64,000 nt of DNA from Candidatus Woesearchaeota archaeon (GCA_023898365.1 CP060219.1:737934-801933); one strand, 5' to 3'; positions 14,269-63,666 are shown, counted from the stretch's first letter. The notes: a model not told the origin generated them from the letters alone. A program made the numbers and translations.

Positions 14269-14721
14269 ATGAGGTGTCCGTTTTGCGAAAGCGATGATAT
14301 TAAGGTTCTGGAGACGCGTGAGAGCGAAGATAATAAAACGCGAAGACGCAGAGAATGTTTGCGCTGCGCAAAACGATTTACCACCGAAGAACAAGTTATC
14401 AATGCGACCATGTTTGTGCAAAAAAAAGATGGTCGCCGAGAAGAATTTTCTCGCGAAAAACTTCTCAAAGGGGTTCTGATTGCTACAGGAAAACGCCCCA
14501 TTCCTCATGAAAAAATCATTCATCTTATTGAAGACACCGAAGCTCGTCTTCGCGAACTTAAAATTTCTGAAGTACCGAGTAAGCGTATTGGTCAAGAAGT
14601 GATTAAACGTCTCAAAAAACTTGACAAAATTGCGTATATTCGTTTTGCATCCGTCTATAAAGAATTAGACGTTGATGATCTTGAGAAAGAATTGGATAAA
14701 CTACGAGGAAAAGAACAATGA
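14269..14721 (+). CDS. nrdR: Transcriptional repressor NrdR (zinc ribbon + ATP-cone)
   Basis: MRCPFCESDDIKVLETRESEDNKTRRRRECLRCAKRFTTEE + ATP-cone (VQKKDGRREEFSREKLLKGV...); ATG at 14269 (track start 14263 is GTG); stop overlaps nrdJ start (ATGA). Confidence 0.9.
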   Translation: MRCPFCESDDIKVLETRESEDNKTRRRRECLRCAKRFTTEEQVINATMFVQKKDGRREEFSREKLLKGVLIATGKRPIPHEKIIHLIEDTEARLRELKISEVPSKRIGQEVIKRLKKLDKIAYIRFASVYKELDVDDLEKELDKLRGKEQ

Positions 14722-17700
14722 GCGGCATGACAGTTAAACGCATGTTTACCGAGAGCGGGAAAGACCCGCTTGGCACACTAACATTTGTAAAGGCAACAAG
14801 CGCCATTCGTGACCAGACAGGCAAAGAAATCTTCAAGAAAGAAAATGTCGAAGTACCTGACACGTGGTCGCAAGTCGCCATTGATATTCTCGCACAAAAG
14901 TATTTTCGCAAACAAGGCGTTCCCCAACGAGACGAACAGGGAAAGCCCCTGCTCAAAGATGGCAAGCCCATTCTTGGCAGTGAATCCAGCATGAAACAAG
15001 TTGCGCATCGTATGGCTTATACGTGGCGATATTGGGGGGAAAAACATGGATACTTTGCCTCTCCCGAAGATGCGCAAACTTTTTATGATGAAATGCTCTA
15101 TGTGCTTTCAAACCAAATTGCCGTTCCTAATTCTCCGCAATGGTTTAATACAGGATTAAATGCAGTTTATGGTATAACTCGTCCACCGCAAGGACATTAC
15201 TATGTTGAACCAGAATCAGGCGAAGTAAAACTTTCGGAAGATGCGTACACGCATCCACAACCTCATGCATGTTTTATTCAATCAGTAAAGGACGATTTAG
15301 TCAATGAAGGAGGAATTTTTGATCTCTTAACGCGAGAAGCACGTGTCTTCAAATATGGTAGTGGTTCCGGAACAAACTTTTCTTCTCTTCGTGGAGAAAC
15401 AGAACCGCTTTCTGGCGGAGGAAAATCAAGCGGCTTAATGTCCTTTTTGAAAGTCTTTGACGCAAGTGCTGGTGCCATCAAAAGCGGAGGCACAACACGG
15501 CGCGCTGCAAAAATGGTCACGCTTGATATTGATCATCCAGAAATTGAAAACTTTATCGAATGGAAAGCGCGAGAAGAAAAGAAGGTTGCCATGCTCGTTG
15601 CAGGAAGTCACGCGGTCAAGAACCTACTTGATGATGTCATGCGAATTGCTTACGAAACAAAATCAACCTCACTCAAAGAAAACGAACGTTTGAAACGAGC
15701 AGTCTTACAAGCGCTTAAAGCAAACGTTTCCCCAAACTATGTGCAGCGCGCACTCTATCTTGTCGAACAAGGCTATAAGTCGATGGACTTGTTTTATCTC
15801 ACCTCAGAATTTGAAAGCGAAGCCTATCAGACGGTTTCAGGTCAGAATTCAAACAATTCTGTCATGGTCACGAATGATTTTCTGAAGGCAGTTGAACAGG
15901 ACGAATCTTGGAAACTTATTCGAAGAACTGATGGCTCGGTGTGCAAAGTTATTCCTGCAAGAGACTTGTGGCAAAAAATCGCACTTGCTGCTTGGCACTC
16001 AGCTGATCCAGGCATCCAATTTCGTGACACCCTTAACGAATGGCATACTTGTCCAAATGATGGACCGATCAATGGATCAAATCCTTGCAGCGAGTATGTA
16101 TTCTTAGATGACACTGCGTGCAATTTGGCATCAATAAATTTGATGAAATTTTACGACGGCAAACAATTCAATGTTGATGCATTTCGTCACACCGTCAGAC
16201 TCATGACTGTTGTGCTCGAAATATCTGTGCTGATGGCACAATTTGCAAGTAAGGAACTCGCAAGGAAGAGTTTTGATTTTCGCACGCTCGGACTTGGCTT
16301 TGCAAACCTTGGCACTCTCCTGATGGTTCAAGGAATTCCGTATGATTCCACAAAAGGCCGATCATTTGCAGGAGCAATAGCGGCAATTATGACGGGAACA
16401 GCGTACGCGACAAGCGCAGCCCTAGCAGCACATCTCGGGCCCTTCCCTCGCTATTCGCAAAACAAGGATTCTATGCTTCGTGTTATTCGCAACCACCGAC
16501 GTGCAGCATACGATGATCCTGATGAATCCTATGAAGAGCTTACTATTACTCCCCAAGGTTTGCACCATGAAGAACTTGATAAGGCTCTTTCTGTTGCGGC
16601 AAAAAAATCTTGGGATGAAGCGCTCCAACTTGGAGAAAAATATGGTTATCGAAATGCACAGACCACGCTTATTGCACCAACGGGCACTATTGGTCTTGTG
16701 ATGGATTGTGACACGACAGGTGTTGAGCCAGACTTTGCCTTGGTGAAATTTAAGAAGCTTGCTGGCGGCGGCTATTTCAAAATTATTAATCAGAGCGTTC
16801 CTCGAGCACTTCAACACCTTGGCTATTCGTCTGAACAAATTCAAGACATTGAAAAGTATGCAACTGGTCATGGGACGATGAAGGGTTGTCCGCATATTAA
16901 TGAAACCACGTTAAGTGAGAAGGGCGTTCCAAAACCGGTTATCAAAAATATTGAAGCACAACTGAAAAACACGTTCGATATAAATTTTGTTTTTAACAAA
17001 TTCACCCTTGGTGAAGAGGTGTGTATTGATCTTGGTTTTACTAAAGATCAACTTGCTGACCCTTCATTAAAGATGCTTGAAGCGCTTGGCTTTTCTCGAA
17101 AAGAAGTAGCGCAAGCAAATGAATACATTTGTGGCTCGATGACCATCGAAGGGGCGCCTCATCTCAAGGAAGAACATTACGCTGTTTTTGACACGGCAAA
17201 TAAATGCGGCAAGAAAGGAACGCGCTTTATCAGTTATCTTGGTCATATCAAGATGATGGGTGCGGTGCAACCATTTTTGAGCGGCTCAATTAGCAAGACC
17301 ATCAACATGGAAAAAGAAGCTTCTATTTCTGATGTAAAAGAAGCGTACTTGACCAGTTGGAAACAAATGATTAAGGCAATTGCGTTGTATCGCGATGGTT
17401 CAAAATTAAGTCAACCACTGAATACGTCAAGTGAAGATGATGAAGAATTACTCTATCTTTTGGATGCTGCAAAGCAAATGCCCGACATTCCCGAACCCGA
17501 AGAAAAAATGGTATTTGCCTCAAAGCAGAAAATGCCAAAGCGACGAGGTGGTTTTGTTCAGGAAGCGGTTGTTGGTGGTCAGAAAATATTTTTGCGAACA
17601 GGAGAATATCCTGATGGTCGCTTGGGAGAAATTTTCATTGACACCTATAAAGAAGGCGCATCTTACGGCGCGCTCCTTAATTGCTTTGCGATAGCAATTT

Positions 17701-18101
17701 CGAAAGCATTGCAACATGGCGTTCCGTTAGAAGAATTTGTTGATGCCTTTACGTTTACTCGCTTTGAACCTGCAGGTGCGGTGCTTGGCCATGACGCGAT
17801 TAAACAGGCCACTTCGATTCTCGACTATGTCTTTCGTGTGCTTGGTTATGAGTATTTAGGACGCAAAGACTTCGTTCATGTGAAGTCAATGGAAACTGCT
17901 GATAAGAAGGAAAAACTTGCCGAGGAAAAACGTGAACTTCCTTCTGAAAAACAGATTCGCATTACTGACACAAAGGTTTTTGAAGCAAGAGCTAAAGGGT
18001 ATACGGGAGAACAATGCACGCAGTGCGGTAGTATGCGCGTCAAACAAAACGGCTCGTGTAGTTTATGTGAAGATTGCGGTACGACAACAGGTTGCAGTTA
18101 A
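14718..18101 (+). CDS. nrdJ: Class II adenosylcobalamin-dependent ribonucleotide reductase, long (~1100 aa) NrdJ type
   Basis: 1127 aa; N-term ...VEVPDTWSQVAIDILAQKYFRK..., C-terminal Cys-rich tail CTQCGSMRVKQNGSCSLCEDCG; no HN[CST] intein signature seen. Confidence 0.9.
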   Translation: MSGMTVKRMFTESGKDPLGTLTFVKATSAIRDQTGKEIFKKENVEVPDTWSQVAIDILAQKYFRKQGVPQRDEQGKPLLKDGKPILGSESSMKQVAHRMAYTWRYWGEKHGYFASPEDAQTFYDEMLYVLSNQIAVPNSPQWFNTGLNAVYGITRPPQGHYYVEPESGEVKLSEDAYTHPQPHACFIQSVKDDLVNEGGIFDLLTREARVFKYGSGSGTNFSSLRGETEPLSGGGKSSGLMSFLKVFDASAGAIKSGGTTRRAAKMVTLDIDHPEIENFIEWKAREEKKVAMLVAGSHAVKNLLDDVMRIAYETKSTSLKENERLKRAVLQALKANVSPNYVQRALYLVEQGYKSMDLFYLTSEFESEAYQTVSGQNSNNSVMVTNDFLKAVEQDESWKLIRRTDGSVCKVIPARDLWQKIALAAWHSADPGIQFRDTLNEWHTCPNDGPINGSNPCSEYVFLDDTACNLASINLMKFYDGKQFNVDAFRHTVRLMTVVLEISVLMAQFASKELARKSFDFRTLGLGFANLGTLLMVQGIPYDSTKGRSFAGAIAAIMTGTAYATSAALAAHLGPFPRYSQNKDSMLRVIRNHRRAAYDDPDESYEELTITPQGLHHEELDKALSVAAKKSWDEALQLGEKYGYRNAQTTLIAPTGTIGLVMDCDTTGVEPDFALVKFKKLAGGGYFKIINQSVPRALQHLGYSSEQIQDIEKYATGHGTMKGCPHINETTLSEKGVPKPVIKNIEAQLKNTFDINFVFNKFTLGEEVCIDLGFTKDQLADPSLKMLEALGFSRKEVAQANEYICGSMTIEGAPHLKEEHYAVFDTANKCGKKGTRFISYLGHIKMMGAVQPFLSGSISKTINMEKEASISDVKEAYLTSWKQMIKAIALYRDGSKLSQPLNTSSEDDEELLYLLDAAKQMPDIPEPEEKMVFASKQKMPKRRGGFVQEAVVGGQKIFLRTGEYPDGRLGEIFIDTYKEGASYGALLNCFAIAISKALQHGVPLEEFVDAFTFTRFEPAGAVLGHDAIKQATSILDYVFRVLGYEYLGRKDFVHVKSMETADKKEKLAEEKRELPSEKQIRITDTKVFEARAKGYTGEQCTQCGSMRVKQNGSCSLCEDCGTTTGCS

Positions 18102-42952: not shown

Positions 42953-45595
42953 ATGGGGGTTGCGATCGAACGATTTGTAGATGGGGGTTCTGTTTCTCAA
43001 AAAGGTTTGGAAGATAGAGTGAAAGCTTTTGTTCTTGACACGAATGAACTCATTAACGATCCTACAGTTATCGAATCTCTTGGAAAGGATAATGTTATTG
43101 TTCTTCCAAAAATGGTTCTTGAAGAACTCGACAAATTAAAAATATCTACTGGTCCCGCTCGTTCTGCAGCAATCGAATTTTGGCAATATTACGATCGATT
43201 AACACAAGGTCTTGAGACAAGATCTGAGCTTGTTGGTCATAATAAAATTAATTCTATTATGACGTTACCAACCGGTTTGCGCATAGTAACTTTTGATTAT
43301 GCTTCTCGACGATCAGAACTTGCAGTTAACACGCCGCCTGATGACGCCATCATTAAATCTGCTGAGTTGTTAAACGAGGCTTTGAAATCTCTCTATGCTT
43401 CAGAAGAAGGTGAAGAGAAGAAGGAAATCTCTCCTGAAGAAGAAGAAAGAGAAAAAGAAATTGCTTCTGCTCGTGAGGTTATGAACGCGCTTGGAAACAT
43501 TTCTGCTGTTGAAGTTATTTCAGAAGATAGGGGTTTACGTTCACTTGCACGAGGAAGGGGTCTTCGAGCAGAACCTTTACTTCAAGAGCAGCGATACTAT
43601 GAGCCTCGGTCTGAACGGGAACATAATCTAGTATATTTGCTTGCAGGAACTGATGCTGGATTTACCAAAAGACATCCTGATGCAGTTGTTATAGAAGATC
43701 CTGAGCTTCATGCTCGTTTTTTTCATGACTTGAAACCAAAGCGAGATTCTTTTTATGCTGATAAGGTCTCCAAAGATCATACAAAACAACCTTCTTTTGT
43801 CGTGCTTACTGACCCTGCTGGTGTAAAAAGATATTTTCGCCTCGTGAAAGGAGTTGTTGATTCAGAAAATATGTACGTTGATATGCCTATCAATATCGTG
43901 CCTACTCGCTCAGGGCATCGTATTTTTCAAAAGATTGCGGGAGGAAAACTTCCACATAGTTCTCTCTTTAGTGAAGGCATGATTAATATTGTTTCTTCAA
44001 GAACTGATCCGAACAGCACTTCAGCATTTTTTGTAGTTGTGGAAAAAGCAGGAAGGCAGAAAAAAATTATTACTGTTTCTCCCGAAGCATTACCAAAAAG
44101 AAAAAACAATGCAATAATGGGTTCTATAAAGCGAGAACTTACTCAAAGAAATCTTCTTGCTAAACGATATCCAATAGATGTTGATCCAAACGGTTTTTTA
44201 GTCTTGCTTAGAAATGGTGGCAGAGAAGAAGTTATATTGATGAAAACTGACGGACATTATGAAGTTGTGCGTGACCCTTACAATCGACCTCTTGGTGCAA
44301 CGCCTCCTTCTCAAGATCATGAAGGATTTCCCGGTATAACTCCTCGAAACAGAGAACAGGCAATTCTCCTCGCAGCTCTTACGAACAATTATAATCTCAC
44401 CAATTTTCCAAATAAGATATTTGCAATTGAAGGTCCCGCTGGTTGCGGAAAGACGCTTCTTGCATTTGCAGCAGCGTTATATCGTCAAGCAATGTCTCTA
44501 AAAATTTCTTCTAAAGCTGCTCTTGGAAAAAAATTAAATGATCTTGAAGATAAACTAGATGATGCGCGTTCAGATGCTGAGAAAGCACACGCACATTTCT
44601 ATCATCGTCATGAACCAAAGAAAACCTTGACCAATAAAGCCGATAAAGAGTTCATTGCAAAATTAAAGGATTCCTTAGGTGTTCGGTGGGATGAGTATTA
44701 TACAAATTTTAGACTTATTGTGGAACGTGCTCACGAAGTTGAACAAAGTTCGCAAGGCCCTTCCCATAAGAGAAAGAAACGCACGAGTTATTATGTGAAA
44801 AGAAGACATGCTCCAAGTGGAAAAATGGTTTCCTGTCTTGACTTTGAAAAGTTTTTTGAGCAGCAGGGTTTGAGCGGTGGGCGTTTATCAAGAGTGGATG
44901 TTTCTGACATAAATGAATATGTACGACTAGAACAACTGCTAATTGATGATGCCTATGAACGAGGAATCTATCGAAAAGAAAAAAAAGTTGCCGAACTTTC
45001 AGAAGAAATTGAACGAGTTAAGTTACAGCTCAAAGATGCTCCTGAAGAATCGCAGCCATTGAAAGTTTACTTGGTCAAACCATCTATTCATGCTGAAGGA
45101 GAAGATCATGGGTTCCTTCCTGGTGATAAGGCGAAAAAAACTGCTCCGTGGCAAGGAAATTATCGAGATTTGTTTGAAAAAATTGTTGGCTGGTTTGGCT
45201 CTGTCGATAAAGGCGGGTTGTTGCCGTTTGGTACCTATGATGCTTATGTGAACAGTGGTTTGCTTGAATTTTCTATTCTCACCGAATTGATGAGTAAGTC
45301 GCTTGACAATTCAATAGTTCTTGTTGATGAAGCGCAGGACATTCGACGAAAGCAACTGAAAGATGCAGTTTTAACAAGACTGGGTTATAATTCGTCTGCC
45401 ATTCTCACCGGCGATCATCTGCAAGTGCATCATCAAGGATTGTCTCGAGGAAAAGGAACTGAAATAGGATTAAAGCATGTAGTTAATACGTTTTTGGATG
45501 ATCCTGATTTGCGTGACGATCGCAAATACTTTGCTCACGTTAATTTGTGGCGAATTGAGCGAAGCGAATTGGCAAAACTCGCCGTCAAATTTTAA
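42953..45595 (+). CDS. PIN-PhoH (YlaK-like) ATPase, double length because of large insertions
   Basis: N-terminal PIN (FVLDTNELINDP...VIVLPKMVLEELDKLK); Walker A FAIEGPAGCGKTLLA (res ~490); Walker B/PhoH motif IVLVDEAQDI...ILTGDHLQ (res ~790); ~250-aa helical insertion between them. Confidence 0.75.
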   Translation: MGVAIERFVDGGSVSQKGLEDRVKAFVLDTNELINDPTVIESLGKDNVIVLPKMVLEELDKLKISTGPARSAAIEFWQYYDRLTQGLETRSELVGHNKINSIMTLPTGLRIVTFDYASRRSELAVNTPPDDAIIKSAELLNEALKSLYASEEGEEKKEISPEEEEREKEIASAREVMNALGNISAVEVISEDRGLRSLARGRGLRAEPLLQEQRYYEPRSEREHNLVYLLAGTDAGFTKRHPDAVVIEDPELHARFFHDLKPKRDSFYADKVSKDHTKQPSFVVLTDPAGVKRYFRLVKGVVDSENMYVDMPINIVPTRSGHRIFQKIAGGKLPHSSLFSEGMINIVSSRTDPNSTSAFFVVVEKAGRQKKIITVSPEALPKRKNNAIMGSIKRELTQRNLLAKRYPIDVDPNGFLVLLRNGGREEVILMKTDGHYEVVRDPYNRPLGATPPSQDHEGFPGITPRNREQAILLAALTNNYNLTNFPNKIFAIEGPAGCGKTLLAFAAALYRQAMSLKISSKAALGKKLNDLEDKLDDARSDAEKAHAHFYHRHEPKKTLTNKADKEFIAKLKDSLGVRWDEYYTNFRLIVERAHEVEQSSQGPSHKRKKRTSYYVKRRHAPSGKMVSCLDFEKFFEQQGLSGGRLSRVDVSDINEYVRLEQLLIDDAYERGIYRKEKKVAELSEEIERVKLQLKDAPEESQPLKVYLVKPSIHAEGEDHGFLPGDKAKKTAPWQGNYRDLFEKIVGWFGSVDKGGLLPFGTYDAYVNSGLLEFSILTELMSKSLDNSIVLVDEAQDIRRKQLKDAVLTRLGYNSSAILTGDHLQVHHQGLSRGKGTEIGLKHVVNTFLDDPDLRDDRKYFAHVNLWRIERSELAKLAVKF

Positions 45596-55214: not shown

Positions 55215-55688
55215 TTACTGTTTCATTTCGTATTCTTTCTTCACCTTTATCACTACGGGTGAACAGGCTTTCTTAATTTCTGAAACGGTAATTTCTAATA
55301 AGGTGTGCATATCACCACCGCCAACAAACACGCTCAGATCATCGGGTAAACTTTCATCAACAATGAATGTTGCGTCAAACCCAAAAGGTGGCACGCCTCC
55401 TGCGGGAAATCCACACACCTTCACAACTTTTTCAAAAGGAACCAGTCGAAGCTTTGAGCAAGAAAACTGTTCGCGGATTTTGTTTTTATCAACGAGATCT
55501 TTACCAAAAAGTATGACGGCAAACAACCGTTCTTCTTTGTCTTCGAGCAACACTGTTTTTACTATTTTTTCAAGAGGAATGCCTGACGCACGTGCTGAAT
55601 GAACAGAACTATGCACGGATGCGGAAAATTCGTGTAGGGTAAACATATAGTGTTTGCGCAGTTCACAAATTTTTTCTCTAGGTGTCAT
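55215..55688 (-). CDS. YbaK/ProX-type aminoacyl-tRNA deacylase domain protein
   Basis: VCGFPAGGVPPFG and FIVDESL motifs typical of YbaK/ProX; ATG 55688 (track start 55694 is TTG); 11-nt overlap with upstream gene. Confidence 0.7.
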   Translation of the reverse strand: MTPREKICELRKHYMFTLHEFSASVHSSVHSARASGIPLEKIVKTVLLEDKEERLFAVILFGKDLVDKNKIREQFSCSKLRLVPFEKVVKVCGFPAGGVPPFGFDATFIVDESLPDDLSVFVGGGDMHTLLEITVSEIKKACSPVVIKVKKEYEMKQ

Positions 55689-56352
55689 CTTCAAGAAACT
55701 CTATTTCGTGTTCAAACAAAATACCTTTTTTGAGCGGAACGGGCCGATAGGTGTCAAGCACCACTTCTGCTTCTAGCCATGAGCCAAGCTCTTGCGGGTT
55801 GCCAATTGTTGCGGACAATCCAATAAGTTGCACCGAAGGAAATCTTGTTTTCATTATGGTAAGAACAATTTCAAGAGCAGGACCTCTCCCTGGATCGGTA
55901 AGTAAATGAATTTCATCAGCAACAACGCATCCAATACTGCCAATCCACAGCGGTCGATGGCGTAAGAGTGAATCAAACTTTTCAACCGTTGCAATAATAA
56001 TATCATATGATGCTAAATAATCGTCACTCGTGTCAAGATCGCCTGAGCTAATACCGATGCGACACGCGGCGCCATATTTTTTCTTAAAATCCTGATACTT
56101 CTCACTTGCAAGCGCTTTGAGCGGCACGAGATAAATTGCTTTACGACCTTTTTCTAACACGGCATTGAGCATGGCAAGTTCTGCAACTAATGTCTTTCCA
56201 GAACCCGTTGGTGAACAGACCAGAATATTTTTTGAAGAAAATAGACCTTTGTCAATGCTCATGCGTTGACAAGCGCGAAGCTCTCGCTGTTTCGTTTTTT
56301 CGCTTAGTATTGCAAACACTTTTGTTGGAATTACTGCTCTTGCTTTTTCCAT
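55678..56352 (-). CDS. Stand-alone DEAH/Ski2-type helicase RecA1 domain (224 aa; truncated Hel308-like)
   Basis: Q-like motif, Walker A CSPTGSGKT, Walker B DEIH, SAT motif; no RecA2 domain follows. Confidence 0.65.
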   Translation of the reverse strand: MEKARAVIPTKVFAILSEKTKQRELRACQRMSIDKGLFSSKNILVCSPTGSGKTLVAELAMLNAVLEKGRKAIYLVPLKALASEKYQDFKKKYGAACRIGISSGDLDTSDDYLASYDIIIATVEKFDSLLRHRPLWIGSIGCVVADEIHLLTDPGRGPALEIVLTIMKTRFPSVQLIGLSATIGNPQELGSWLEAEVVLDTYRPVPLKKGILFEHEIEFLEDDT

Positions 56353-56966: not shown

Positions 56967-57431
56967 TTATGGATGCTTCTTTTTTCTTTGTAAAGAAAAT
57001 TCGTAGAGGATGATAAGCACGATACTAACTGAAAGCAGCGCATCAGCAACGTTAAAGACGGGAAAGAAACCTAGATCAATGAAATCAGTAACGAATCCAA
57101 AAAAAATCCGATCAAGAATGTTACCAACACCGCCTGCAAAAAAAAGGCTTTCGCCAAGCCAGCTTCGCCGATCAAATTGAGAAAATGCAAGCCAACACAT
57201 GCCAAGAATGATGATGCTAAGCCCAAGAAACAAGAGATTTTTTCCAGGAAATAAGCCCCACGAAACACCGGTGTTTGCAACAAAATGCAAGTGAAGAACA
57301 CCAAAGGAAACATCCAACCCGTTGCGAAACAAAAACTTGGTACTTTGATCAACAAGCACTGCAAGAAGAAATGCAAGAACTACTTTACCAGGAAATTTCA
57401 TCCCTTTTTGTTTGCTTTGACGTGCCATCAA
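56967..57431 (-). CDS. lspA: Lipoprotein signal peptidase II (LspA)
   Basis: 4 TM; conserved FNVAD motif and NxxDR-like NILDRIFFGF segment; alternative start at 57401 (MKFPGK...). Confidence 0.75.
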   Translation of the reverse strand: MMARQSKQKGMKFPGKVVLAFLLAVLVDQSTKFLFRNGLDVSFGVLHLHFVANTGVSWGLFPGKNLLFLGLSIIILGMCWLAFSQFDRRSWLGESLFFAGGVGNILDRIFFGFVTDFIDLGFFPVFNVADALLSVSIVLIILYEFSLQRKKKHP

Positions 57432-57771
57432 CGATCTTCTCTATTTTTTGTAAACGCAAATTTACTCCGTCAAGTTCGCTCTTGATCATATCAAGTTTTG
57501 CAAGTATTAACTCAATTTCTCGCGAAGAATTTTGCGACAGGCCTGGTTCTTGCCGGGCACCACTCATCATAGGATCTCGATACTCTCGCTCTTTTATCGG
57601 TTCGCCAATTTGTCCCCCTGGTTGTCGTGGCGTGCCAAGAATAGGGTCATTCGCGAAGGGATCGTTTGCTTGTTGAGATGATCCTGAATCTCCGAATAAA
57701 TTATCGTCAAGGCCGGGATCAAATGCCTGTTCTTCTTTTCGTTTAAACAAATTTTTAATTCCCATCGTCAT
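57385..57771 (-). CDS. Hypothetical Gln/Pro-rich protein with C-terminal coiled coil
   Basis: ATG 57771 (track start 57810 is TTG); short overlaps with both neighbours. Confidence 0.4.
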   Translation of the reverse strand: MTMGIKNLFKRKEEQAFDPGLDDNLFGDSGSSQQANDPFANDPILGTPRQPGGQIGEPIKEREYRDPMMSGARQEPGLSQNSSREIELILAKLDMIKSELDGVNLRLQKIEKIVDGTSKQTKRDEISW

Positions 57772-58522
57772 CGCCACGCAACCGCTCGCCAAGTGATTGG
57801 CCGATTGCAAAGGTCTTGTCTCCGGCCATTTTCAAATAAGAAAACACGATCTTCGTCGGTTTGACTGTAATCGAATCCTCTCTGATGCCATCAAGAAAAA
57901 ACATGCCGCCTTGTTCTTCAAGCGCGTTTTTAACAAGTCCTGCGAACACCACCGATTTAAGATCTTGACCTGTGCCATACAACTCTTCGATTGCTGTTCT
58001 TGCTGCTACTTTTTCTTCATCAGATAAGGAGTCATAGCCTGGCGTTCTTGTTTGGGTAACATACCCAATTGGATCTTCTTGTGAAAGAACCTCAAGTAAG
58101 AATTCATTTGATAAGTCTTTACCAAAGGGGCCTTTTGTTTGCACTGTTACATTGTCAATTGCTTCTTTGCTGATGATGAACGTTAAGTAATACTCTTTTG
58201 GAGGTTCTTGCAAAGGAAAAGAGGCAAGTTCTTCTGCTGAAAAAATTGTTTCTTCATCCTCAAAAGCACCTATGTGGAATCCTGCAAGTACCTGTTCGTC
58301 TTCAACATACAAAAACGCCTTTTCCTTACTGGGGAAGTCTTCTTTGAACGATTTGACTTCTTGGTAGACGTTGATGCCGAAAATCGCACTCAGTAAAATG
58401 ACAACGACAACAACAACGAGCACTGCTTTGAGCACGCTCTTGATAAGTTTAAAGGAGAGAAATATGACAATTGCAAGGATGACGCCAAGGATCAAAGGAT
58501 TCGCGAATAATTCAGTTAACAT
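57755..58522 (-). CDS. N-terminally membrane-anchored hypothetical protein
   Basis: MLTELFANPLILGVILAIVIFLSF...AVLVVVVVVILLSAIFG two TM then soluble domain; divergent from the HerA-like gene. Confidence 0.5.
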   Translation of the reverse strand: MLTELFANPLILGVILAIVIFLSFKLIKSVLKAVLVVVVVVILLSAIFGINVYQEVKSFKEDFPSKEKAFLYVEDEQVLAGFHIGAFEDEETIFSAEELASFPLQEPPKEYYLTFIISKEAIDNVTVQTKGPFGKDLSNEFLLEVLSQEDPIGYVTQTRTPGYDSLSDEEKVAARTAIEELYGTGQDLKSVVFAGLVKNALEEQGGMFFLDGIREDSITVKPTKIVFSYLKMAGDKTFAIGQSLGERLRGDDDGN

Positions 58523-58624
58523 CTCACCACCTCCAGACAGATAGATCGGGACTGCTTCTTTAAAAAACTTCTTGTTGCGTTCTCACCCATTAACTTTAAA
58601 TAAGCACTCAGTTTAGCATCTCTT

Positions 58625-60583
58625 ATGCTCCTTGGAACGCTCTTTGGAAAGATAACCACGAACAAATTTTCATTTGCCGCAACTACGACGGTAAAAAAGT
58701 TTGATTATGTGCAGGTGATGCATGACGAGTACGGGTTTGTTCTTAGTCAAATTGTTGAAGTGACGCGCGATAAAGGAAAAACCCTTGCAACCTGTCAAAT
58801 TATTGGGTTTCTTGACAATGGCAAACTTACGCGTCTTCGCACTCCTTTTGCAGAAAACTCCGAGGTTCTCTTAGCTGAGGATGATGTGGTCAAAGAAATT
58901 GTCATGGCGGCAATTCCCCAGCACGGCTTTTTTCTTGGCAGACTTGATGGTCGCTACGTTGATGTTCTTCTCGATCCGGATATTGTCTTAACAAAGCATC
59001 TTGCTATTCTTGCAAAATCGGGAGCAGGAAAATCGTATGCGGCGGGCGTCCTTCTTGAAGAGATGCTTGAAAAGAATGTTCCTGTTCTCATTTTTGATCC
59101 CCATGGAGAATACGCAACCCTTAGCGAAAAAGCTGAACCGAGCGAAGCGTTAGCAAGTTTCGGCCTTGATCCAAAGCGCTATAAAGTAAAAACGTGGGGT
59201 GATCCAACGGTTGTTGCGAATGCAACGCCCATTTCCCTTCCACCACCCGCAACTGCACATGATCTTTTTGATTTGCTTCCAGGAAAGCTTTCCCCTTCCC
59301 AGCAAGCTCTCTTGCACACCGCATTGAAAGGGCTATCACAGTTCACGTTTGACGATCTCCTTGCCATTCTTGATCTTGAAGAGTCCACATCAAAGTTTCA
59401 ACTCATGGGAATGATCACCTACCTTAAAGAACTAAAACTCTTCTCCCAAGCAAGGCCTGCACACAACGAATTCGTTAAACCGGGCAGGGCGAACATTATC
59501 AATTTCAAAGGGTTCTCTCCTGACGTACAAGAAATTATCGCTTCTAAATTATTAACTGATTTGTTTAAGCTTCGAAAAGAAAACAAGATTCCTCCTTTCT
59601 TTTTGGTGCTCGAAGAAGCGCATAATTTTTGTCCTGAAAGAAGTTTTGGAGAGAAAAAATCTTCGAAAATTATTCGCACATTAGCTTCTGAAGGAAGAAA
59701 ATTCGGTCTTGGACTGTGCGTTATTAGTCAGCGTCCTGCACGTATTGATAAATCGGTATTAAGTCAGTGTTCAACAAACATTATTTTGAAAGTGACAAAC
59801 CCGCAAGATGTCAGAGCAGTCATGGCAAGCGTTGAAGGTGTAACTGATGCTTCGGAGACTGAAATTCAGCAGCTTCCTATTGGCAGCGCAATGATTTGCG
59901 GCGTTACAGATGTTCCTCTCTTCATTTCTGTTCGTCCGAGAAGAACAAAACACGGCGGCGAAACAGTACGTATTCTGCAACAAGAAGAATCATTTACCAA
60001 CCAACAACAATCATTTCAGGAGGCAGAAGTGTTGCCCTTGATCAAACCAGAAATGTCGTTGCAAGATGCACGCATTGTTCTTGACAAGCAAGATGCGGGC
60101 GTTGAGTTAGTGCCTGCAATTCAAGTTGTCTGTTCTGAAAATAATGAAACCTTTCATGTTCTTGTTGAACTCATCGAAGGAGGAATTGTTGCAAACAGAG
60201 ACACGTTCGAAAAAAAATTCATCCCCTCATTTCAAGGACTCTTACCTCTTGCTGTTCAAATATTGCGCTATGCAAACAAAGCAGAACGCTTCTTACCAAG
60301 CGCATTGTATTCTCTTGGGGCTGCGCGAGAACGATCAAAAGCACTTGCTCAATTACTTGAAAAAGGATATGTGATACGAGATGGCGAGCACATTGCCCTT
60401 TCACCACAGTTCTTATTCAAGAAGCTTTCAAGCGTGAAAGATTTTGGCAAACTCCAATATGAAAGCATCGCTTACAAAGAAAAACTAGCTCCCCTTCTCC
60501 AAGCAAAAGAGGTGCAAGAACAATTTGCAAAATTTGTTTCAGTCATTGAAACAAATGAGTGTTTCTTGGTGCGTTACATATAA
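58625..60583 (+). CDS. HerA-family (FtsK/HerA superfamily, DUF87-type) ATPase with extra ~200-aa C-terminal domain
   Basis: HAS-barrel-like N-term (FDYVQVMHDEYGFVLSQIVEV...); Walker A HLAILAKSGAGKSYAAG; VPVLIFDPHGEY; Walker B FFLVLEEAHNF; ISQRPARID Arg-finger; C-terminal 450-652 unassigned. Confidence 0.7.
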   Translation: MLLGTLFGKITTNKFSFAATTTVKKFDYVQVMHDEYGFVLSQIVEVTRDKGKTLATCQIIGFLDNGKLTRLRTPFAENSEVLLAEDDVVKEIVMAAIPQHGFFLGRLDGRYVDVLLDPDIVLTKHLAILAKSGAGKSYAAGVLLEEMLEKNVPVLIFDPHGEYATLSEKAEPSEALASFGLDPKRYKVKTWGDPTVVANATPISLPPPATAHDLFDLLPGKLSPSQQALLHTALKGLSQFTFDDLLAILDLEESTSKFQLMGMITYLKELKLFSQARPAHNEFVKPGRANIINFKGFSPDVQEIIASKLLTDLFKLRKENKIPPFFLVLEEAHNFCPERSFGEKKSSKIIRTLASEGRKFGLGLCVISQRPARIDKSVLSQCSTNIILKVTNPQDVRAVMASVEGVTDASETEIQQLPIGSAMICGVTDVPLFISVRPRRTKHGGETVRILQQEESFTNQQQSFQEAEVLPLIKPEMSLQDARIVLDKQDAGVELVPAIQVVCSENNETFHVLVELIEGGIVANRDTFEKKFIPSFQGLLPLAVQILRYANKAERFLPSALYSLGAARERSKALAQLLEKGYVIRDGEHIALSPQFLFKKLSSVKDFGKLQYESIAYKEKLAPLLQAKEVQEQFAKFVSVIETNECFLVRYI

Positions 60584-61026
60584 CTCGAAATGCTTGGCGT
60601 GATAACGTCAAGATTGAGAAAGAGCACGAGAACAATGCCTGCCATAAACACGAGCATGGAAATAACATAACTTTGCAGTGCAACTTGAAAGGATGTTTCT
60701 TTGTCAACTTTTGCGATAAGGTTACACAGCTTATATGCGCAAATCGAAAATAAAGCAAGACCAATGCTGACACTTGCAAACTCACTCATAATCAACGTAC
60801 AAGCAGTTGTAGCAACTAAAAACACAAGAGAACTAACACTGACAATAAATAGGATGTCTGCTCGCTGTTGTTTTTTGAGAAAGAGGCGAAATAAGAGGAG
60901 CTCGAGAGGAATCAAGAGTAGCGTAACAATGCCAATAAGAAACACTTGAGCACTAAACTGGGCAAGCATGAAGGGTAACGGCAGGTGAGGATTTATATAG
61001 GCATCGTTTTCGGGCAACTTCTCCAT
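60574..61026 (-). CDS. Polytopic membrane protein (hypothetical), convergent with the HerA-like gene
   Basis: 4 TM; ATG 61026 (track start 61050 is TTG). Confidence 0.5.
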   Translation of the reverse strand: MEKLPENDAYINPHLPLPFMLAQFSAQVFLIGIVTLLLIPLELLLFRLFLKKQQRADILFIVSVSSLVFLVATTACTLIMSEFASVSIGLALFSICAYKLCNLIAKVDKETSFQVALQSYVISMLVFMAGIVLVLFLNLDVITPSISSYM

Positions 61027-61119
61027 GGTAAAAAGAGCCGATTTTGTCAAGGACTTTCGGGAAAAATTTTTAAATGGAGAAGATGTTATTTTCTCGTAGA
61101 GTACATGAGGGGAATGAGC

Positions 61120-62532
61120 ATGAAATATACATTATTTGCATCTTTGCTATTGGTCTTGGTGTCGTCGTTTGTTCTTGCAGACGCGTTTCATTATGAAGCA
61201 GGAGCCGTACGATCGGTTGTTTTACCTGGATCGCCAGTCGTGTTCAACCTTTCGATCACTAATTTGCAAAGTAGCACTGATGTTGTTTCCTTTTCTCCTG
61301 TAGAAAGTACGAACTGGATAACGACTCCAAGTTCGGTCTCCGTGCTTCCCCAAGAAACAAAAGTAGTCACCCTCACTATCACTCCTGCACAGGTCTTTGT
61401 TGGCTCGTTTACCGTTGACATTGATGCGCACTCAAGAAACACCAGAGAAATCTCTCGTATTTCTCTTTTTACGCGATTTACGACATCAAGCCCTGCGCAA
61501 TCATATGTCAAAAACGTTGGGGTTGTGGTAGCAACTGATGAAGTGTATGATCCTCGTGAGCAAGTGAAAGTTCGCTTTTCTCTTACTAACAGAAACCCAA
61601 TTCTTATCGATCCGGTGCGCATTGTCGTACTCTCAGACGGACTCTTTGAAGATGAATTTACCATCTCCCTTGATCCTCTTGAACAAGAAGATATTAATCG
61701 CTACTACGTCATCGACCCACTTCAAGCGCCAGGAGAGCATGAACTTATTGTCAATGTCTTCCTTGATAATGAATCCGTTGCGTACAAGAGTGTACAGAAA
61801 CTATTCTCGGTTGAAGAATACGGTGACATCTCTTTTACGCTCACCACAGAAAAAGATGGATTGTTATCACGACGCTTAGTTGAAGTGTTCACCAACACAG
61901 GAAATATTCCTCTTGAAAAAACATTCATGATTCCTGTTGGTGGATTTCGCAAATACTTTTCTTCAACAGACCCATCGTACAAGGTCGTAAAAGATTTGAA
62001 TGGAAACAATTATTATGAAGTCGGCGTTTCCTTAGCACCTAACACATCAACAGAAGTTGTCTTTACAGAAAATTTCTGGCCTCTTGTCTCTACCATCCTT
62101 GTTATTATCGTCAGCATTGTTGCATACTTTGTTTTCAGACCGCAAGTTGTTATTCGAAAATCATATTCGACACTCGGAGACAATGAGAAAGATGGCACGC
62201 AAGTACTTCGCGTACGACTCATTGTTCGAAACCGTTCAAGAACGCCAGTTTCAAACTTATCAGTCTTTGACAAGGCACCGCACATCGTTGACATCAGTGT
62301 TGATGACAAGCCAGGCGTGCTTATGCCAACAAAAATTACAAAGAATGACAAACGAGGAGCGATCGTTAAATGGGATATTGACTTGTTTGATGGCTTTGAA
62401 GAACGCATCCTCGTCTACAAACTCAAAACAAAACTCAACGTCATAGGAGATATGACCTTGCCACGGGCAAAAGCAAAATTTGTGAGCAAATTCGGTGCGC
62501 AAACAACGGTGCAAAGTAAGCGTGTTTTCTAA
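61120..62532 (+). CDS. Secreted beta-rich protein with C-terminal TM anchor (S-layer/COG1470-like, inference)
   Basis: Signal MKYTLFASLLLVLVSSFVLADA; TM WPLVSTILVIIVSIVAYFVF near residue 350; ATG 61120 with GAGGGG upstream (track start 60985 rejected). Confidence 0.6.
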   Translation: MKYTLFASLLLVLVSSFVLADAFHYEAGAVRSVVLPGSPVVFNLSITNLQSSTDVVSFSPVESTNWITTPSSVSVLPQETKVVTLTITPAQVFVGSFTVDIDAHSRNTREISRISLFTRFTTSSPAQSYVKNVGVVVATDEVYDPREQVKVRFSLTNRNPILIDPVRIVVLSDGLFEDEFTISLDPLEQEDINRYYVIDPLQAPGEHELIVNVFLDNESVAYKSVQKLFSVEEYGDISFTLTTEKDGLLSRRLVEVFTNTGNIPLEKTFMIPVGGFRKYFSSTDPSYKVVKDLNGNNYYEVGVSLAPNTSTEVVFTENFWPLVSTILVIIVSIVAYFVFRPQVVIRKSYSTLGDNEKDGTQVLRVRLIVRNRSRTPVSNLSVFDKAPHIVDISVDDKPGVLMPTKITKNDKRGAIVKWDIDLFDGFEERILVYKLKTKLNVIGDMTLPRAKAKFVSKFGAQTTVQSKRVF

Positions 62533-62620
62533 AGAGAGGTGAGGAAAAACGGTTCTTGAAAGCATCCTCCCTTCGGGTTGGCTCGAGCGGAGGCTACGTT
62601 ACGTATTCTTTCTTGGTAGT

Positions 62621-63400
62621 GTGTATTCCGTCATAGGCATTCTCATTGCACGATTGTTGTTTCCAAATAATCCTTCGCTGGTGTCAGTTGCATTCACTTC
62701 CTTGCTTCTCCTGCCTTCATTAAGTAAAATCTTTTCTCTTGAAACAAGACAACAAGCAAGAGAAAAGCGGTTTAGTTTTCGCAAACTCATCTATGACGAG
62801 TACGATTTTGTTGGCGTCTACCTCATGCTCATGCTTGGCGTCTTTGTCACGTATTTACTGGCAGCTGTTGTGCTCCCCAATTTCGAAGTTAACAGCTTGT
62901 TTGCAGCCCAACTAACAACAGGGGATATTGCGGGCTTTGCAACCTTTAATTCAGGGCTCTTTTCTCTCATACTGCTCAATAACTTCTTTGTCTTACTTGC
63001 GTGCTTCTTGCTTTCGTTGTTGACTGGTGATGGAGGTTCATTCCTTCTTATCTGGAATGCATCGCTTTGGGGATCTGTTTTTGGCATCACTGCAAAAAAT
63101 GCGGCGTTCTACTTAGGACAAAATCCTTTCTTTGTTATCTTCATGATTTTACTTGTTGTCTTTCCTCATGCCCTTCTAGAAATGTTCTCTTATATTTTGG
63201 GAGCTATTAGCGGAGGAATTATTTCAAAAAGCTTTCAGCACGGTATTGTTCAGAAAAAAAACGAGCTCTTCATGTATAACTTTTGGACTTTCTTTATTGC
63301 GTTTGCAGTTCTTATCATTGCAGCGCTTGTTGAAACATTCGTATTGCAAAACGCATCGACGTACGCGTCAATTGCGCATCTTGCGAGGTTCGGGCCGTGA
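62621..63400 (+). CDS. Polytopic membrane protein (SpoIIM/DUF95-like, weak), GTG start
   Basis: 6 TM; in-frame stop at 62540 and no ATG before the first TM leaves GTG 62621 as start. Confidence 0.45.
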   Translation: MYSVIGILIARLLFPNNPSLVSVAFTSLLLLPSLSKIFSLETRQQAREKRFSFRKLIYDEYDFVGVYLMLMLGVFVTYLLAAVVLPNFEVNSLFAAQLTTGDIAGFATFNSGLFSLILLNNFFVLLACFLLSLLTGDGGSFLLIWNASLWGSVFGITAKNAAFYLGQNPFFVIFMILLVVFPHALLEMFSYILGAISGGIISKSFQHGIVQKKNELFMYNFWTFFIAFAVLIIAALVETFVLQNASTYASIAHLARFGP

Positions 63401-63666
63401 AACTGACGAGCTATCTTTTTTCTTTTGAGCGGTTTGCCATTCACTTGCTCATACTCATCCTTCTTGGAGGCGTGCAGCTCCTGCAACAACTTCTTTCTTT
63501 AGATAAAATCTTGTTTTGGTATGATTATGTGTTGATGTTCTTGTTCTTGCCCTCGCTTTACCTTCCAGGGTTTTTTGGCATTTTTCTCACGTATGTCTAC
63601 TTTCACGTGCTTGCCTGCGTTGCAACTGTTGCGTATTTGTTCGCTCGTGAAAACATGAAGAAATAA
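63397..63666 (+). CDS. Small membrane protein (GTGA-coupled to upstream gene)
   Basis: 89 aa, 3 hydrophobic helices; GTG start overlapping upstream TGA. Confidence 0.35.
   Translation: MKLTSYLFSFERFAIHLLILILLGGVQLLQQLLSLDKILFWYDYVLMFLFLPSLYLPGFFGIFLTYVYFHVLACVATVAYLFARENMKK

What the first reader, a model, noticed from the sequence alone, without database searches (positions are those of the whole stretch)
57755..63666. HerA-family ATPase with a novel C-terminal domain embedded in a membrane/secreted-protein locus (Ced-like DNA translocation or defence candidate)
58625-60583 has the HerA hallmarks: HAS-barrel-like N-terminus, Walker A AILAKSGAGKSYA, Walker B LVLEEAHNF, Arg-finger SQRPARID. 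No NurA/Mre11/Rad50 partner is nearby, and it carries ~200 extra C-terminal residues of unknown fold. It is flanked by a divergent membrane-anchored protein, a convergent 4-TM protein, a secreted TM-anchored beta-rich protein, a 6-TM protein and a small 3-TM protein. HerA-like ATPases paired with membrane proteins occur in crenarchaeal Ced DNA-import systems, and HerA with novel C-terminal effectors occurs in antiphage systems. Either would be noteworthy in a DPANN-like genome.
Basis: partly seen in the sequence, partly recalled or inferred. Interest (0 to 1): 0.7.

Follow-up and report, generated by a model that had tools for sequence, protein, structure and literature searches.

The report
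DPANN HerA translocase with extra tail
This is a real HerA-type DNA-pumping ATPase whose extra ~190-residue C-terminal domain is conserved in hundreds of Woesearchaeota and Nanoarchaeota genomes, but it looks like a housekeeping DNA-repair gene, and the membrane genes beside it are chance neighbours rather than a DNA-import or defence system.

Summary
Window 58625-60583(+) encodes a 652-aa soluble HerA-family ATPase with a HAS-like barrel, Walker A, Walker B and an SQRPAR motif. A conserved C-terminal extension follows the ATPase, and membrane or secreted proteins flank the gene.

The Ced-like or defence interpretation is not supported.
- The gene is found in at least 592 species-representative genomes, in changing and mostly housekeeping contexts.
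- None of the window's membrane neighbours recurs next to it, apart from residual synteny of the secreted protein in four close relatives.
- It has no TM segment and no effector partner.
- Its closest structures are the repair HerAs of Sulfolobus and Thermococcus.
- Orthologues carry inteins in the P-loop and near the arginine motif.
- NurA genes are common in the same lineage. They share a contig with this HerA in at least 12 cases and lie 1-4 kb away in six species. No other HerA sits beside NurA.

The extension is a flexible acidic linker followed by a beta-rich domain with a winged-helix insert. A sister clade lacks the insert. Neither Pfam nor the PDB covers the beta part.

Best reading: the lineage's own HerA, working with an unlinked NurA, with a new accessory tail of unknown role. 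It is a new variant of a known kind, of modest interest.

The parts
58594..58601 (+). TTTAAATA, an archaeal TATA-box-like element 24-31 nt upstream of the ATG. It suggests the gene has its own promoter and a short or absent leader.
   Evidence: Read by eye from the sequence. This is an inference from the archaeal TATA consensus and was not tested.
58625..60583 (+). HerA-family ATPase gene (652 aa). The protein is soluble, with no predicted TM segment.
58625..58909 (+). N-terminal HAS-like beta barrel (aa 1-95).
   Evidence: AF2 model strands at aa 2-83. Pfam HAS-barrel gives weak, sub-cut-off hits in two intein-free or intein-bearing relatives and is a precomputed annotation for homologue P0004. 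The region superposes on HerA 4d2i.
58922..59959 (+). RecA-like HerA ATPase domain (aa 100-445), ending in the invariant HGG at aa 443-445.
   Evidence: Pfam DUF87 at 1.4e-28. PDB HerA chains at E 1e-17 to 3e-29. Invariant columns.
59012..59035 (+). Walker A / P-loop AKSGAGKS (aa 130-137). This is also the site where orthologues carry an intein.
   Evidence: Sequence. Invariant G133, G135, K136, S137. Intein at about aa 136-146 in P0160, P0164 and P0145.
59600..59617 (+). Walker B FLVLEE (aa 326-331).
   Evidence: Sequence. Invariant F326, E330, E331.
59726..59749 (+). SQRPARID (aa 368-375), the HerA arginine-finger/sensor motif.
   Evidence: Invariant Q369, R370, P371, A372, R373, D375. Aligned to the same motif of HerA 9x1l and 4d2i.
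59960..60022 (+). Flexible acidic linker (aa 446-466).
   Evidence: pLDDT below 50 in the full-length model. Mean net charge -4.5 in 120 homologues.
60023..60229 (+). First half of the family-specific beta-rich C-terminal domain (aa 467-535; beta-alpha-beta4).
   Evidence: AF2 model with pLDDT about 95. Conserved P471, I473, P475, D481, P497, C503, G519, P534. Present in 87 of 89 relatives scanned.
60230..60409 (+). Winged-helix domain (aa 536-595) inserted into the beta domain.
60410..60580 (+). Second half of the beta-rich C-terminal domain (aa 596-652; beta-alpha-beta).
   Evidence: AF2 model. C646 and F637 are conserved. In WH-less orthologues it is joined directly to the first half.

Best explanation
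The gene encodes the Woesearchaeota/Nanoarchaeota version of the archaeal DNA translocase HerA. It is a chromosomal housekeeping gene, not a component of the surrounding membrane genes.

Inferred by homology to solved HerA rings: six subunits form a ring, with the HAS barrels on one face and the RecA-like ATPase domains forming the motor. Walker A (GAGKS 133-137), Walker B (FLVLEE 326-331) and the arginines of SQRPAR (368-373) build the inter-subunit ATP sites. ATP hydrolysis pulls double-stranded DNA through the central pore.

The most likely partner is the NurA nuclease, which is encoded elsewhere in the genome. It would dock on the HAS face and resect DNA ends for recombinational repair.

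Shown here: after an invariant HGG comes a ~20-residue acidic flexible tether. It carries a lineage-specific module, a conserved beta-rich domain into which a winged-helix domain is inserted.

Inferred role of the module: helix 3 of the winged helix, the usual DNA-reading helix, is acidic in the family consensus, and a sister clade lacks the whole insert. The tail is therefore more likely a partner-recruiting or regulatory appendage on the exit face of the ring than a sequence-reading DNA-binding domain.
For: Family membership:
- HerA profiles match strongly.
- The best solved structures are S. solfataricus HerA 4d2i (Foldseek E 2.9e-32, TM 0.78 normalised to the target) and the T. kodakarensis HerA-NurA complex 9x1m. 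Both rank ahead of the anti-phage HerAs (sequence level).

Core-gene behaviour:
- At least 592 species genomes carry a relative.
- The 120 closest homologues are 640-720 aa and cover the full length.
- Neighbours elsewhere are exosome, aIF5B (IF-2), RNA polymerase and prefoldin genes, and they vary between genomes.
- Orthologues carry inteins in the P-loop and near the SQRP motif. From general knowledge, such inteins are typical of essential replication and repair enzymes.

NurA link:
- A Pfam-positive NurA lies 3.7 kb away in Archaeon GW2011_AR15.
- NurA lies within 1-4 kb in six species: L001/L010, L012, L015, L021, L022 and L092. An unconfirmed 336-aa candidate sits two genes away on the 4.5-kb contig L091.
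- The NurA profile finds 999 proteins, mostly from Woesearchaeota and Nanoarchaeota.
- Two stand-alone NurA loci have no other HerA beside them.

Tail anatomy:
- The AF2 model has pLDDT 90. The linker is disordered.
- Helix 3 is acidic in the consensus.
- The winged helix is cleanly deleted in 10 orthologues, confirmed by hhalign at E 1.4e-38.
Against: - NurA was not found in the 64-kb window or the next ~7 kb. The rest of this 1.13-Mb genome could not be searched, and its contig is not among the 120 NurA hits listed.
- NurA lies within 10 kb in only 4 of the 80 species loci.
- The protein scores far below the NCBIfam equivalog cut-offs for repair HerA: 136 bits against 970, and 118 against 800. 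Orthology is therefore inferred, not shown.
- No phylogeny against CedB, anti-phage or other HerA clades was made.
- The role of the C-terminal module is pure inference.
- In this particular protein helix 3 is basic (AARERSKALAQLLEK), so DNA contact cannot be excluded.
Confidence: 0.6

Rival explanations
1. It is an FtsK-like chromosomal DNA pump. The ring translocase carries a tethered C-terminal winged helix, as the gamma domain does in FtsK, SpoIIIE and TraB. The winged helix would orient or load the motor on DNA for chromosome segregation or clearance at division, independently of NurA.
For: - The architecture is a motor, a flexible linker and a C-terminal winged helix.
- It belongs to the same FtsK-HerA superfamily (weak FtsK/Zot/TrwB hits).
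- The gene is stand-alone and widely conserved.
- ScpB and SMC genes are nearby in some genomes.
- In this protein helix 3 is basic.
Against: - Helix 3 is acidic in the family consensus, and the winged-helix domain has a net charge of about 0.
- A sister clade lacks the winged helix altogether while keeping the beta domain.
- The closest structures are repair HerAs.
- NurA co-occurs and is sometimes linked.
Confidence: 0.12
2. It is an anti-phage HerA, comparable to SIR2-HerA or DUF4297-HerA, in which the C-terminal module acts as the effector or sensor.
For: PADLOC HerA models match, the best at 138 bits. Anti-phage HerA structures are the next-best structural matches.
Against: - The scores equal those for repair HerA and lie far below the NCBIfam anti-phage cut-offs: 105 bits against 800, and 94 against 850.
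- No SIR2, DUF4297 or other effector sits beside the gene here or in 86 other loci.
- It is present in at least 592 species, in housekeeping contexts and with inteins.
- The tail has no catalytic-looking conserved motif.
Confidence: 0.05
3. It is the ATPase of a Ced-like or type-IV-secretion-like DNA import machine, working with the flanking membrane proteins.
For: TM proteins flank the gene. The CedD model gives a partial match at 86 bits. A SpoIIM/DUF95 protein is adjacent again in L026.
Against: - The protein has no TM segment.
- It has a HAS barrel instead of the VirB4-like N-terminal domain that defines CedB and CedD (PMC11868833).
- The CedD cut-off of 600 bits is not met.
- The flanking genes are not conserved with it.
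- A convergent gene separates it from the downstream TM genes.
Confidence: 0.04
4. It is the packaging or transfer ATPase of an integrated virus or plasmid.
For: PHROG hits to a family of unknown function (130 bits) and to a family annotated as terminase large subunit (91 bits). A resolvase gene lies about 8 kb downstream.
Against: - The hits cover only the shared ATPase core.
- The flanks and the tail have no PHROG match.
- The surrounding genes are cellular: TYW3, signal peptidase II, thymidylate kinase.
- GC content is flat across the region.
- The gene is conserved vertically in hundreds of species.
Confidence: 0.02

Closest known systems
Archaeal DNA-repair translocase HerA of the HerA-NurA complex (S. 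solfataricus 4d2i; T. kodakarensis 9x1l/9x1m)
   Same: It shares the HAS barrel, the RecA-like ATPase, Walker A, Walker B and the SQRP arginine motif. These are the best structural and sequence matches. NurA is present in the lineage and sometimes linked to this gene.
   Different: Identity is only 21-23%, and scores are far below the equivalog cut-offs. The gene is not in an operon with NurA, Mre11 or Rad50. It carries an extra linker and a ~185-aa C-terminal module that canonical HerA lacks.
FtsK / SpoIIIE / TraB translocases, which carry a C-terminal gamma winged-helix domain
   Same: It belongs to the same superfamily. Its layout also has a ring motor followed by a flexible linker and a winged helix.
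   Different: It belongs to a different clade (HerA, with a HAS barrel). The winged helix is inserted in a beta domain, has an acidic helix 3 in the family consensus, and is dispensable in a sister clade. There is no membrane anchor.
Anti-phage HerA (SIR2-HerA/Nezha, DUF4297-HerA)
   Same: It has the HerA fold, and profile scores are similar to those for repair HerA.
   Different: It has no effector partner, is distributed like a core gene and carries inteins. The cut-offs are not met.
CedB / CedD of the crenarchaeal Ced DNA-import system
   Same: The ATPase domain belongs to the HerA clade (PMC11868833).
   Different: It lacks the TM helix and the VirB4-like N-terminal domain, and has no conserved CedA-like partner. 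The lineage is Woesearchaeota/Nanoarchaeota, not Crenarchaeota.

Membership tests
HerA clade of the FtsK-HerA superfamily | Match to the HerA central ATPase domain (Pfam PF01935/DUF87) above the gathering score | tested here: met
   100.9 bits against a cut-off of 23.2, over aa 103-311.
HerA clade of the FtsK-HerA superfamily | N-terminal HAS beta barrel preceding the ATPase | tested here: met
   The AF2 model has an all-beta region at aa 1-83. The full-length model superposes on 4d2i over about 500 alignment columns. Pfam HAS-barrel itself is not significant for the window protein: two relatives give sub-cut-off hits (21-22 bits against 25.2) and P0004 carries it as a precomputed annotation.
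HerA clade of the FtsK-HerA superfamily | Walker A, Walker B and a trans-acting arginine motif | tested here: met
   GAGKS at aa 133-137, FLVLEE at aa 326-331 and SQRPAR at aa 368-373, all invariant in 44 sequences.
Repair HerA (NCBIfam equivalogs NF040819, NF040937) | Score at or above the curated equivalog cut-off | tested here: not met
   136 bits against 970, and 118 bits against 800.
Repair HerA (HerA-NurA system) | A NurA nuclease partner in the same genome, classically adjacent | tested here: inconclusive
   No NurA lies in the window or within 10 kb downstream of the gene. The rest of the genome was not searchable. In relatives NurA shares a contig in at least 12 cases and lies 1-4 kb away in six species.
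Repair HerA (HerA-NurA system) | Hexameric ring that translocates dsDNA and binds NurA on the HAS face | not testable with these tools
   This needs biochemistry or multimer modelling.
Ced system ATPase (CedB/CedD) | TM helix plus VirB4-like N-terminal domain (PMC11868833) | tested here: not met
   No hydrophobic segment. The N-terminus is a HAS-type barrel.
Ced system ATPase (CedB/CedD) | NCBIfam CedD equivalog cut-off | tested here: not met
   86 bits against 600.
Ced system ATPase (CedB/CedD) | Conserved co-occurrence with CedA/VirB6-like multi-TM and pilin-like partners | tested here: not met
   The flanking TM proteins have no relevant family hits. They do not recur beside the ATPase in 86 other loci.
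Anti-phage HerA systems (SIR2-HerA, DUF4297-HerA) | Adjacent effector gene (SIR2, DUF4297 or another nuclease/NADase) | tested here: not met
   No such domain appears in the flanks here or in the related loci.
Anti-phage HerA systems (SIR2-HerA, DUF4297-HerA) | NCBIfam HerA_antiphage equivalog cut-offs | tested here: not met
   105 bits against 800, and 94 bits against 850.
FtsK/SpoIIIE | FtsK alpha/beta motor domain and membrane anchor | tested here: not met
   No Pfam FtsK_SpoIIIE hit. The only FtsK-like hit is a weak PHROG match at 19.6 bits. No TM segment.
FtsK/SpoIIIE | C-terminal winged helix that reads a chromosomal polarity motif | tested here: inconclusive
   The winged-helix fold is present. 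However, helix 3 is acidic in the family consensus and the domain is absent from a sister clade. DNA binding was not testable.

The most novel reading that the evidence does not exclude
The conserved tail, a beta domain with or without a winged helix on an acidic tether, turns this HerA into a self-sufficient, NurA-independent DNA pump specific to DPANN archaea. It might act as an FtsK-like chromosome-segregation or chromosome-clearing motor. Alternatively it might be a motor recruited by a still-unknown partner to take up or process foreign or host DNA in these genome-reduced symbionts. The beta domain would then be a new partner-docking fold.
Probability: 0.12. Interest if true: 0.65.

Novelty: new variant of a known kind. 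Interest (0 to 1): 0.3.

Why it matters
DPANN archaea have very small genomes, yet at least 592 species keep this HerA together with a ~190-residue appendage that no domain library describes. Defining the appendage would improve annotation of thousands of proteins now labelled only 'ATP-binding protein'. It could also show how DNA-end processing or DNA pumping is organised in a lineage where HerA and NurA are uncoupled in the genome. The finding does not reveal a new DNA-import or defence system.

Tried and rejected
1. DUF7499. The window protein matches at E 0.002-0.01, below the cut-off. Only 1 of 43 family members matches, so I treat it as chance.
2. Secreted 470/515-aa protein as a partner. 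Homologues lie 1-6 kb from the ATPase in L004, L006, L007 and L008. Their orientation and spacing differ, and they sit beside aIF5B. An HMM finds none in the 80 species loci. I read this as residual synteny of close relatives.
3. SpoIIM/DUF95 as a partner. It recurs only in L026.
4. Recurrent neighbours elsewhere. These are an 84-aa coiled-coil protein (20 of 83 loci), an MscS-like channel (19), an Asn-synthase-like protein (17) and IF-2 (16). None is universal, and none of these is present anywhere in the window.
5. A 438-aa unknown protein lies beside HerA in L004 and another beside NurA in L094. They are not homologous.
6. The NurA HMM and tblastn found nothing in the window.
7. PDB sequence searches with the tail, as a single sequence and as two profiles, found nothing.
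9. Literature searches for a description of this HerA variant in DPANN or Woesearchaeota found none.
10. My greedy ORF caller missed NurA in L001 because a neighbouring ORF was over-extended. The NurA counts therefore rest on stop-to-stop ORFs and tblastn.

Full report
**Observation.** The ORF map matches the finding.
- 57755-58522(-) encodes 255 aa.
- 58625-60583(+) encodes 652 aa.
- 60574-61050(-) encodes 158 aa.
- 60985-62532(+) encodes 515 aa. Public gene calls and homologues start it at M 61120, giving 470 aa.
- 62621-63400(+) encodes 259 aa.
- 63397-63666(+) encodes 89 aa. Public gene calls do not include it.

The 652-aa protein matches Pfam DUF87, the HerA central domain, at 1.4e-28. 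It also matches every HerA model in NCBIfam and PADLOC. All are invariant in 44 homologues.

A hydropathy scan finds no TM segment in the ATPase. It confirms TM segments in all five neighbours. The 259-aa neighbour is a SpoIIM/DUF95-family protein.

No NurA, Mre11 or Rad50 was found in the window. A NurA HMM and tblastn covered all six frames. Pfam scans covered 35 of the ~65 ORFs, including all of at least 270 aa except 42953-45595.

**What the protein is.** A full-length AlphaFold2 model (pLDDT 83.7) shows:
- an N-terminal beta barrel (aa 1-83);
- a RecA-like ATPase (about aa 100-440);
- a disordered stretch (aa 446-466);
- a separately folded C-terminal module (aa 469-652).

Foldseek against the PDB ranks the S. 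solfataricus repair HerA 4d2i first (E 2.9e-32, TM 0.78 relative to the target, 23% identity). The T. kodakarensis HerA-NurA complex 9x1m comes second. The SIR2-HerA and DUF4297-HerA defence proteins follow at 16-20% identity. Sequence searches of the PDB give the same order.

All NCBIfam equivalog cut-offs are missed by a wide margin:

| Model | Score (bits) | Cut-off (bits) |
|---|---|---|
| Repair HerA | 136 | 970 |
| Anti-phage HerA | 105 | 800 |
| CedD | 86 | 600 |

This is therefore a distinct HerA subfamily.

**The C-terminal extension.** Canonical HerA profiles and structures end near aa 450-464 of this protein.
- The remaining ~190 residues are conserved without gaps in the 120 closest homologues.
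- They have no PDB sequence match and no reproducible Pfam match.
- An exhaustive HMMER search of 1.84 billion representative proteins with aa 445-652 found only 68 proteins. The seven full-length hits scanned with Pfam all carry the domain at the C-terminus of a HerA-like ATPase, four of them with inteins (1058-1339 aa). The remaining hits have compatible lengths and match positions or are short fragments.

An AF2 model of aa 440-652 is confident (pLDDT 90.1, pTM 0.79). Its order is beta-alpha-beta4, then a three-helix winged-helix unit with a beta hairpin, then beta-alpha-beta.

Two observations argue against a classical DNA-reading winged helix.
- In the family consensus, helix 3 is acidic (D569 in 59% of sequences; D/E at 571-573 in 36-58%). 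The domain's net charge is about zero.
- A domain-wise HMM scan of 89 related loci found 10 orthologues of 605-640 aa whose two beta halves are only 10-13 residues apart. They have no winged helix.
- Profile-profile alignment confirms a clean deletion of exactly that unit (hhalign E 1.4e-38).

The conserved, defining addition is therefore the beta-rich domain. The winged helix is an optional insert. The linker before it is acidic (mean charge -4.5) and disordered.

**Is it part of a membrane locus?** No.

In the window the ATPase is flanked by a divergent gene upstream. Downstream lies a convergent gene whose end overlaps it by 10 nt. A TATA-like TTTAAATA sits 24-31 nt before its ATG (read by eye). 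It therefore looks monocistronic.

I collected the gene's surroundings in close relatives. I also collected 80 species-representative genomes out of at least 592 that encode a relative.
- tblastn found the 255-aa, 158-aa and 89-aa neighbours beside the ATPase in no other locus, and SpoIIM in one.
- The secreted protein appears only in the four closest relatives, at 1-6 kb, on either strand, beside aIF5B. An HMM of that family finds none in the 80 species loci.
- Unbiased clustering of all neighbours shows no universal partner. The commonest are an 84-aa coiled-coil protein (20 of 83 loci), an MscS-like channel (19), an Asn-synthase-like protein (17) and IF-2 (16).
- None of these commonest neighbours is present in this window.
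- Elsewhere the gene sits among exosome, RNA polymerase, prefoldin and ribosomal-protein genes.

**Ced and defence readings.** According to PMC11868833, CedB and CedD combine a TM helix, a VirB4-like N-terminal domain and a HerA-type ATPase. [quoted passage not shown] This protein has no TM helix, has a HAS barrel at its N-terminus, and has no conserved CedA-like partner.

For defence, no SIR2, DUF4297 or other effector is adjacent here or in any related locus. The gene's breadth and housekeeping surroundings are unlike a defence island.

Orthologues carry inteins in the P-loop and near the SQRP motif. From general knowledge, this is typical of essential replication and repair enzymes. PHROG matches are confined to the ATPase core.

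**NurA.**
- A 314-aa protein 3.7 kb from the orthologue in Archaeon GW2011_AR15 passes Pfam's NurA threshold: 26.1 bits against a cut-off of 21.
- NurA homologues lie 1-4 kb from the ATPase in six species. In L092 the order is HerA, Asn-synthase-like, PfkB, NurA, TopA, then ScpB and a Hef-like helicase further on. On the 4.5-kb contig L091 an unconfirmed 336-aa candidate lies two genes from HerA.
- A NurA profile search returns 999 proteins, largely from Woesearchaeota and Nanoarchaeota. Many are named NurA by NCBI. Twelve have the same longest-contig length as entries in the HerA list, so they very probably sit on the same contigs.
- Two stand-alone NurA loci have no other HerA beside them.

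The simplest reading is that this subfamily is the lineage's HerA and that NurA is usually unlinked. For the window's own genome, NurA remains untested outside the 64-kb window and the ~7 kb beyond it that I could read.

**Mechanism.** By homology to solved HerA rings, I infer a hexameric dsDNA translocase. Its inter-subunit ATP sites are built by the motifs above. It probably feeds DNA ends to NurA for resection.

Shown here: six copies of a beta-rich module, with or without the winged-helix insert, hang on acidic flexible tethers after the invariant HGG.

Inferred role: partner recruitment or regulation. Sequence-specific DNA guidance, as by FtsK gamma, is the main alternative. I give about 0.6 to the HerA-NurA repair reading and about 0.12 to an FtsK-like autonomous pump. 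Defence, Ced-like import and mobile-element roles each get 0.05 or less.

**Novelty and verdict.** The family is annotated only as 'ATP-binding protein' or 'HerA-like ATPase'. Its tail is absent from Pfam and from the PDB at sequence level. Three literature searches found no description of it.

It is a new variant of a known kind: a DPANN-wide HerA with an uncatalogued C-terminal domain. It is not a new DNA-import or defence system. Interest is modest, at 0.3.

Noticed in passing
P0124, P0145, P0160, P0164 (orthologues; no window coordinates): Orthologues of 1058-1339 aa carry inteins, some with LAGLIDADG homing endonucleases. The inteins are inserted at the Walker A P-loop (equivalent to about aa 136-146) or near the SQRP motif (about aa 365).
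   Followed up: partly
window 61120-62532 (+); L004:3071-4522, L006:3941-5383, L007:3725-5125, L008:13063-14553: This is a conserved 466-496-aa protein family with a signal peptide, a beta-rich ectodomain, one TM segment and a ~130-aa cytoplasmic tail. It has no significant Pfam, NCBIfam, PADLOC or PHROG match. In four relatives it sits beside aIF5B and within 6 kb of the HerA gene.
   Followed up: partly
window 62621-63400 (+); L026:9198-9821: A SpoIIM/DUF95 (COG1300) membrane protein lies 2 kb downstream of HerA here and directly upstream of it in L026. Makarova et al. 2014 (PMC4158269) list both DUF95 (arCOG01996) and HerA-like helicases (arCOG00280) among the commonest families in archaeal 'dark matter islands'. 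Two of 84 loci is too few to call this a link.
   Followed up: partly
window 56967-57431 (-): This ORF is a lipoprotein signal peptidase II (Pfam Peptidase_A8, 1.5e-25), a typically bacterial enzyme, in a DPANN archaeal genome. It may have been acquired horizontally.
   Followed up: no
window 55678-56352 (-) and 55215-55694 (-): A 224-aa ORF holds only the N-terminal DEAD/ResIII half of a superfamily-2 helicase. It overlaps by 17 nt a 159-aa YbaK/tRNA_edit-domain ORF. It may be a truncated or split helicase gene.
   Followed up: no
L004:9598-9852 (-) and homologues in 20 of 83 related loci: An 84-aa lysine-rich coiled-coil protein of unknown function is the most frequent neighbour of the HerA gene. 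It is usually divergent and immediately upstream. It is absent from this window.
   Followed up: partly
L001:15683-18946, L092:12091-15373, L093:3636-6927: In three Woesearchaeota genomes NurA is divergently paired with topoisomerase I (TopA). ScpB and a Hef-like helicase-nuclease are often nearby. This may be a small DNA-maintenance neighbourhood.
   Followed up: no
It has no homologue in any related locus, so its reality is doubtful.
   Followed up: partly
window 14718-18101 (+): This ORF is a class II (B12-dependent) ribonucleotide reductase with a C-terminal TSCPD domain (1127 aa). It shows the organism can make its own deoxynucleotides.
   Followed up: no
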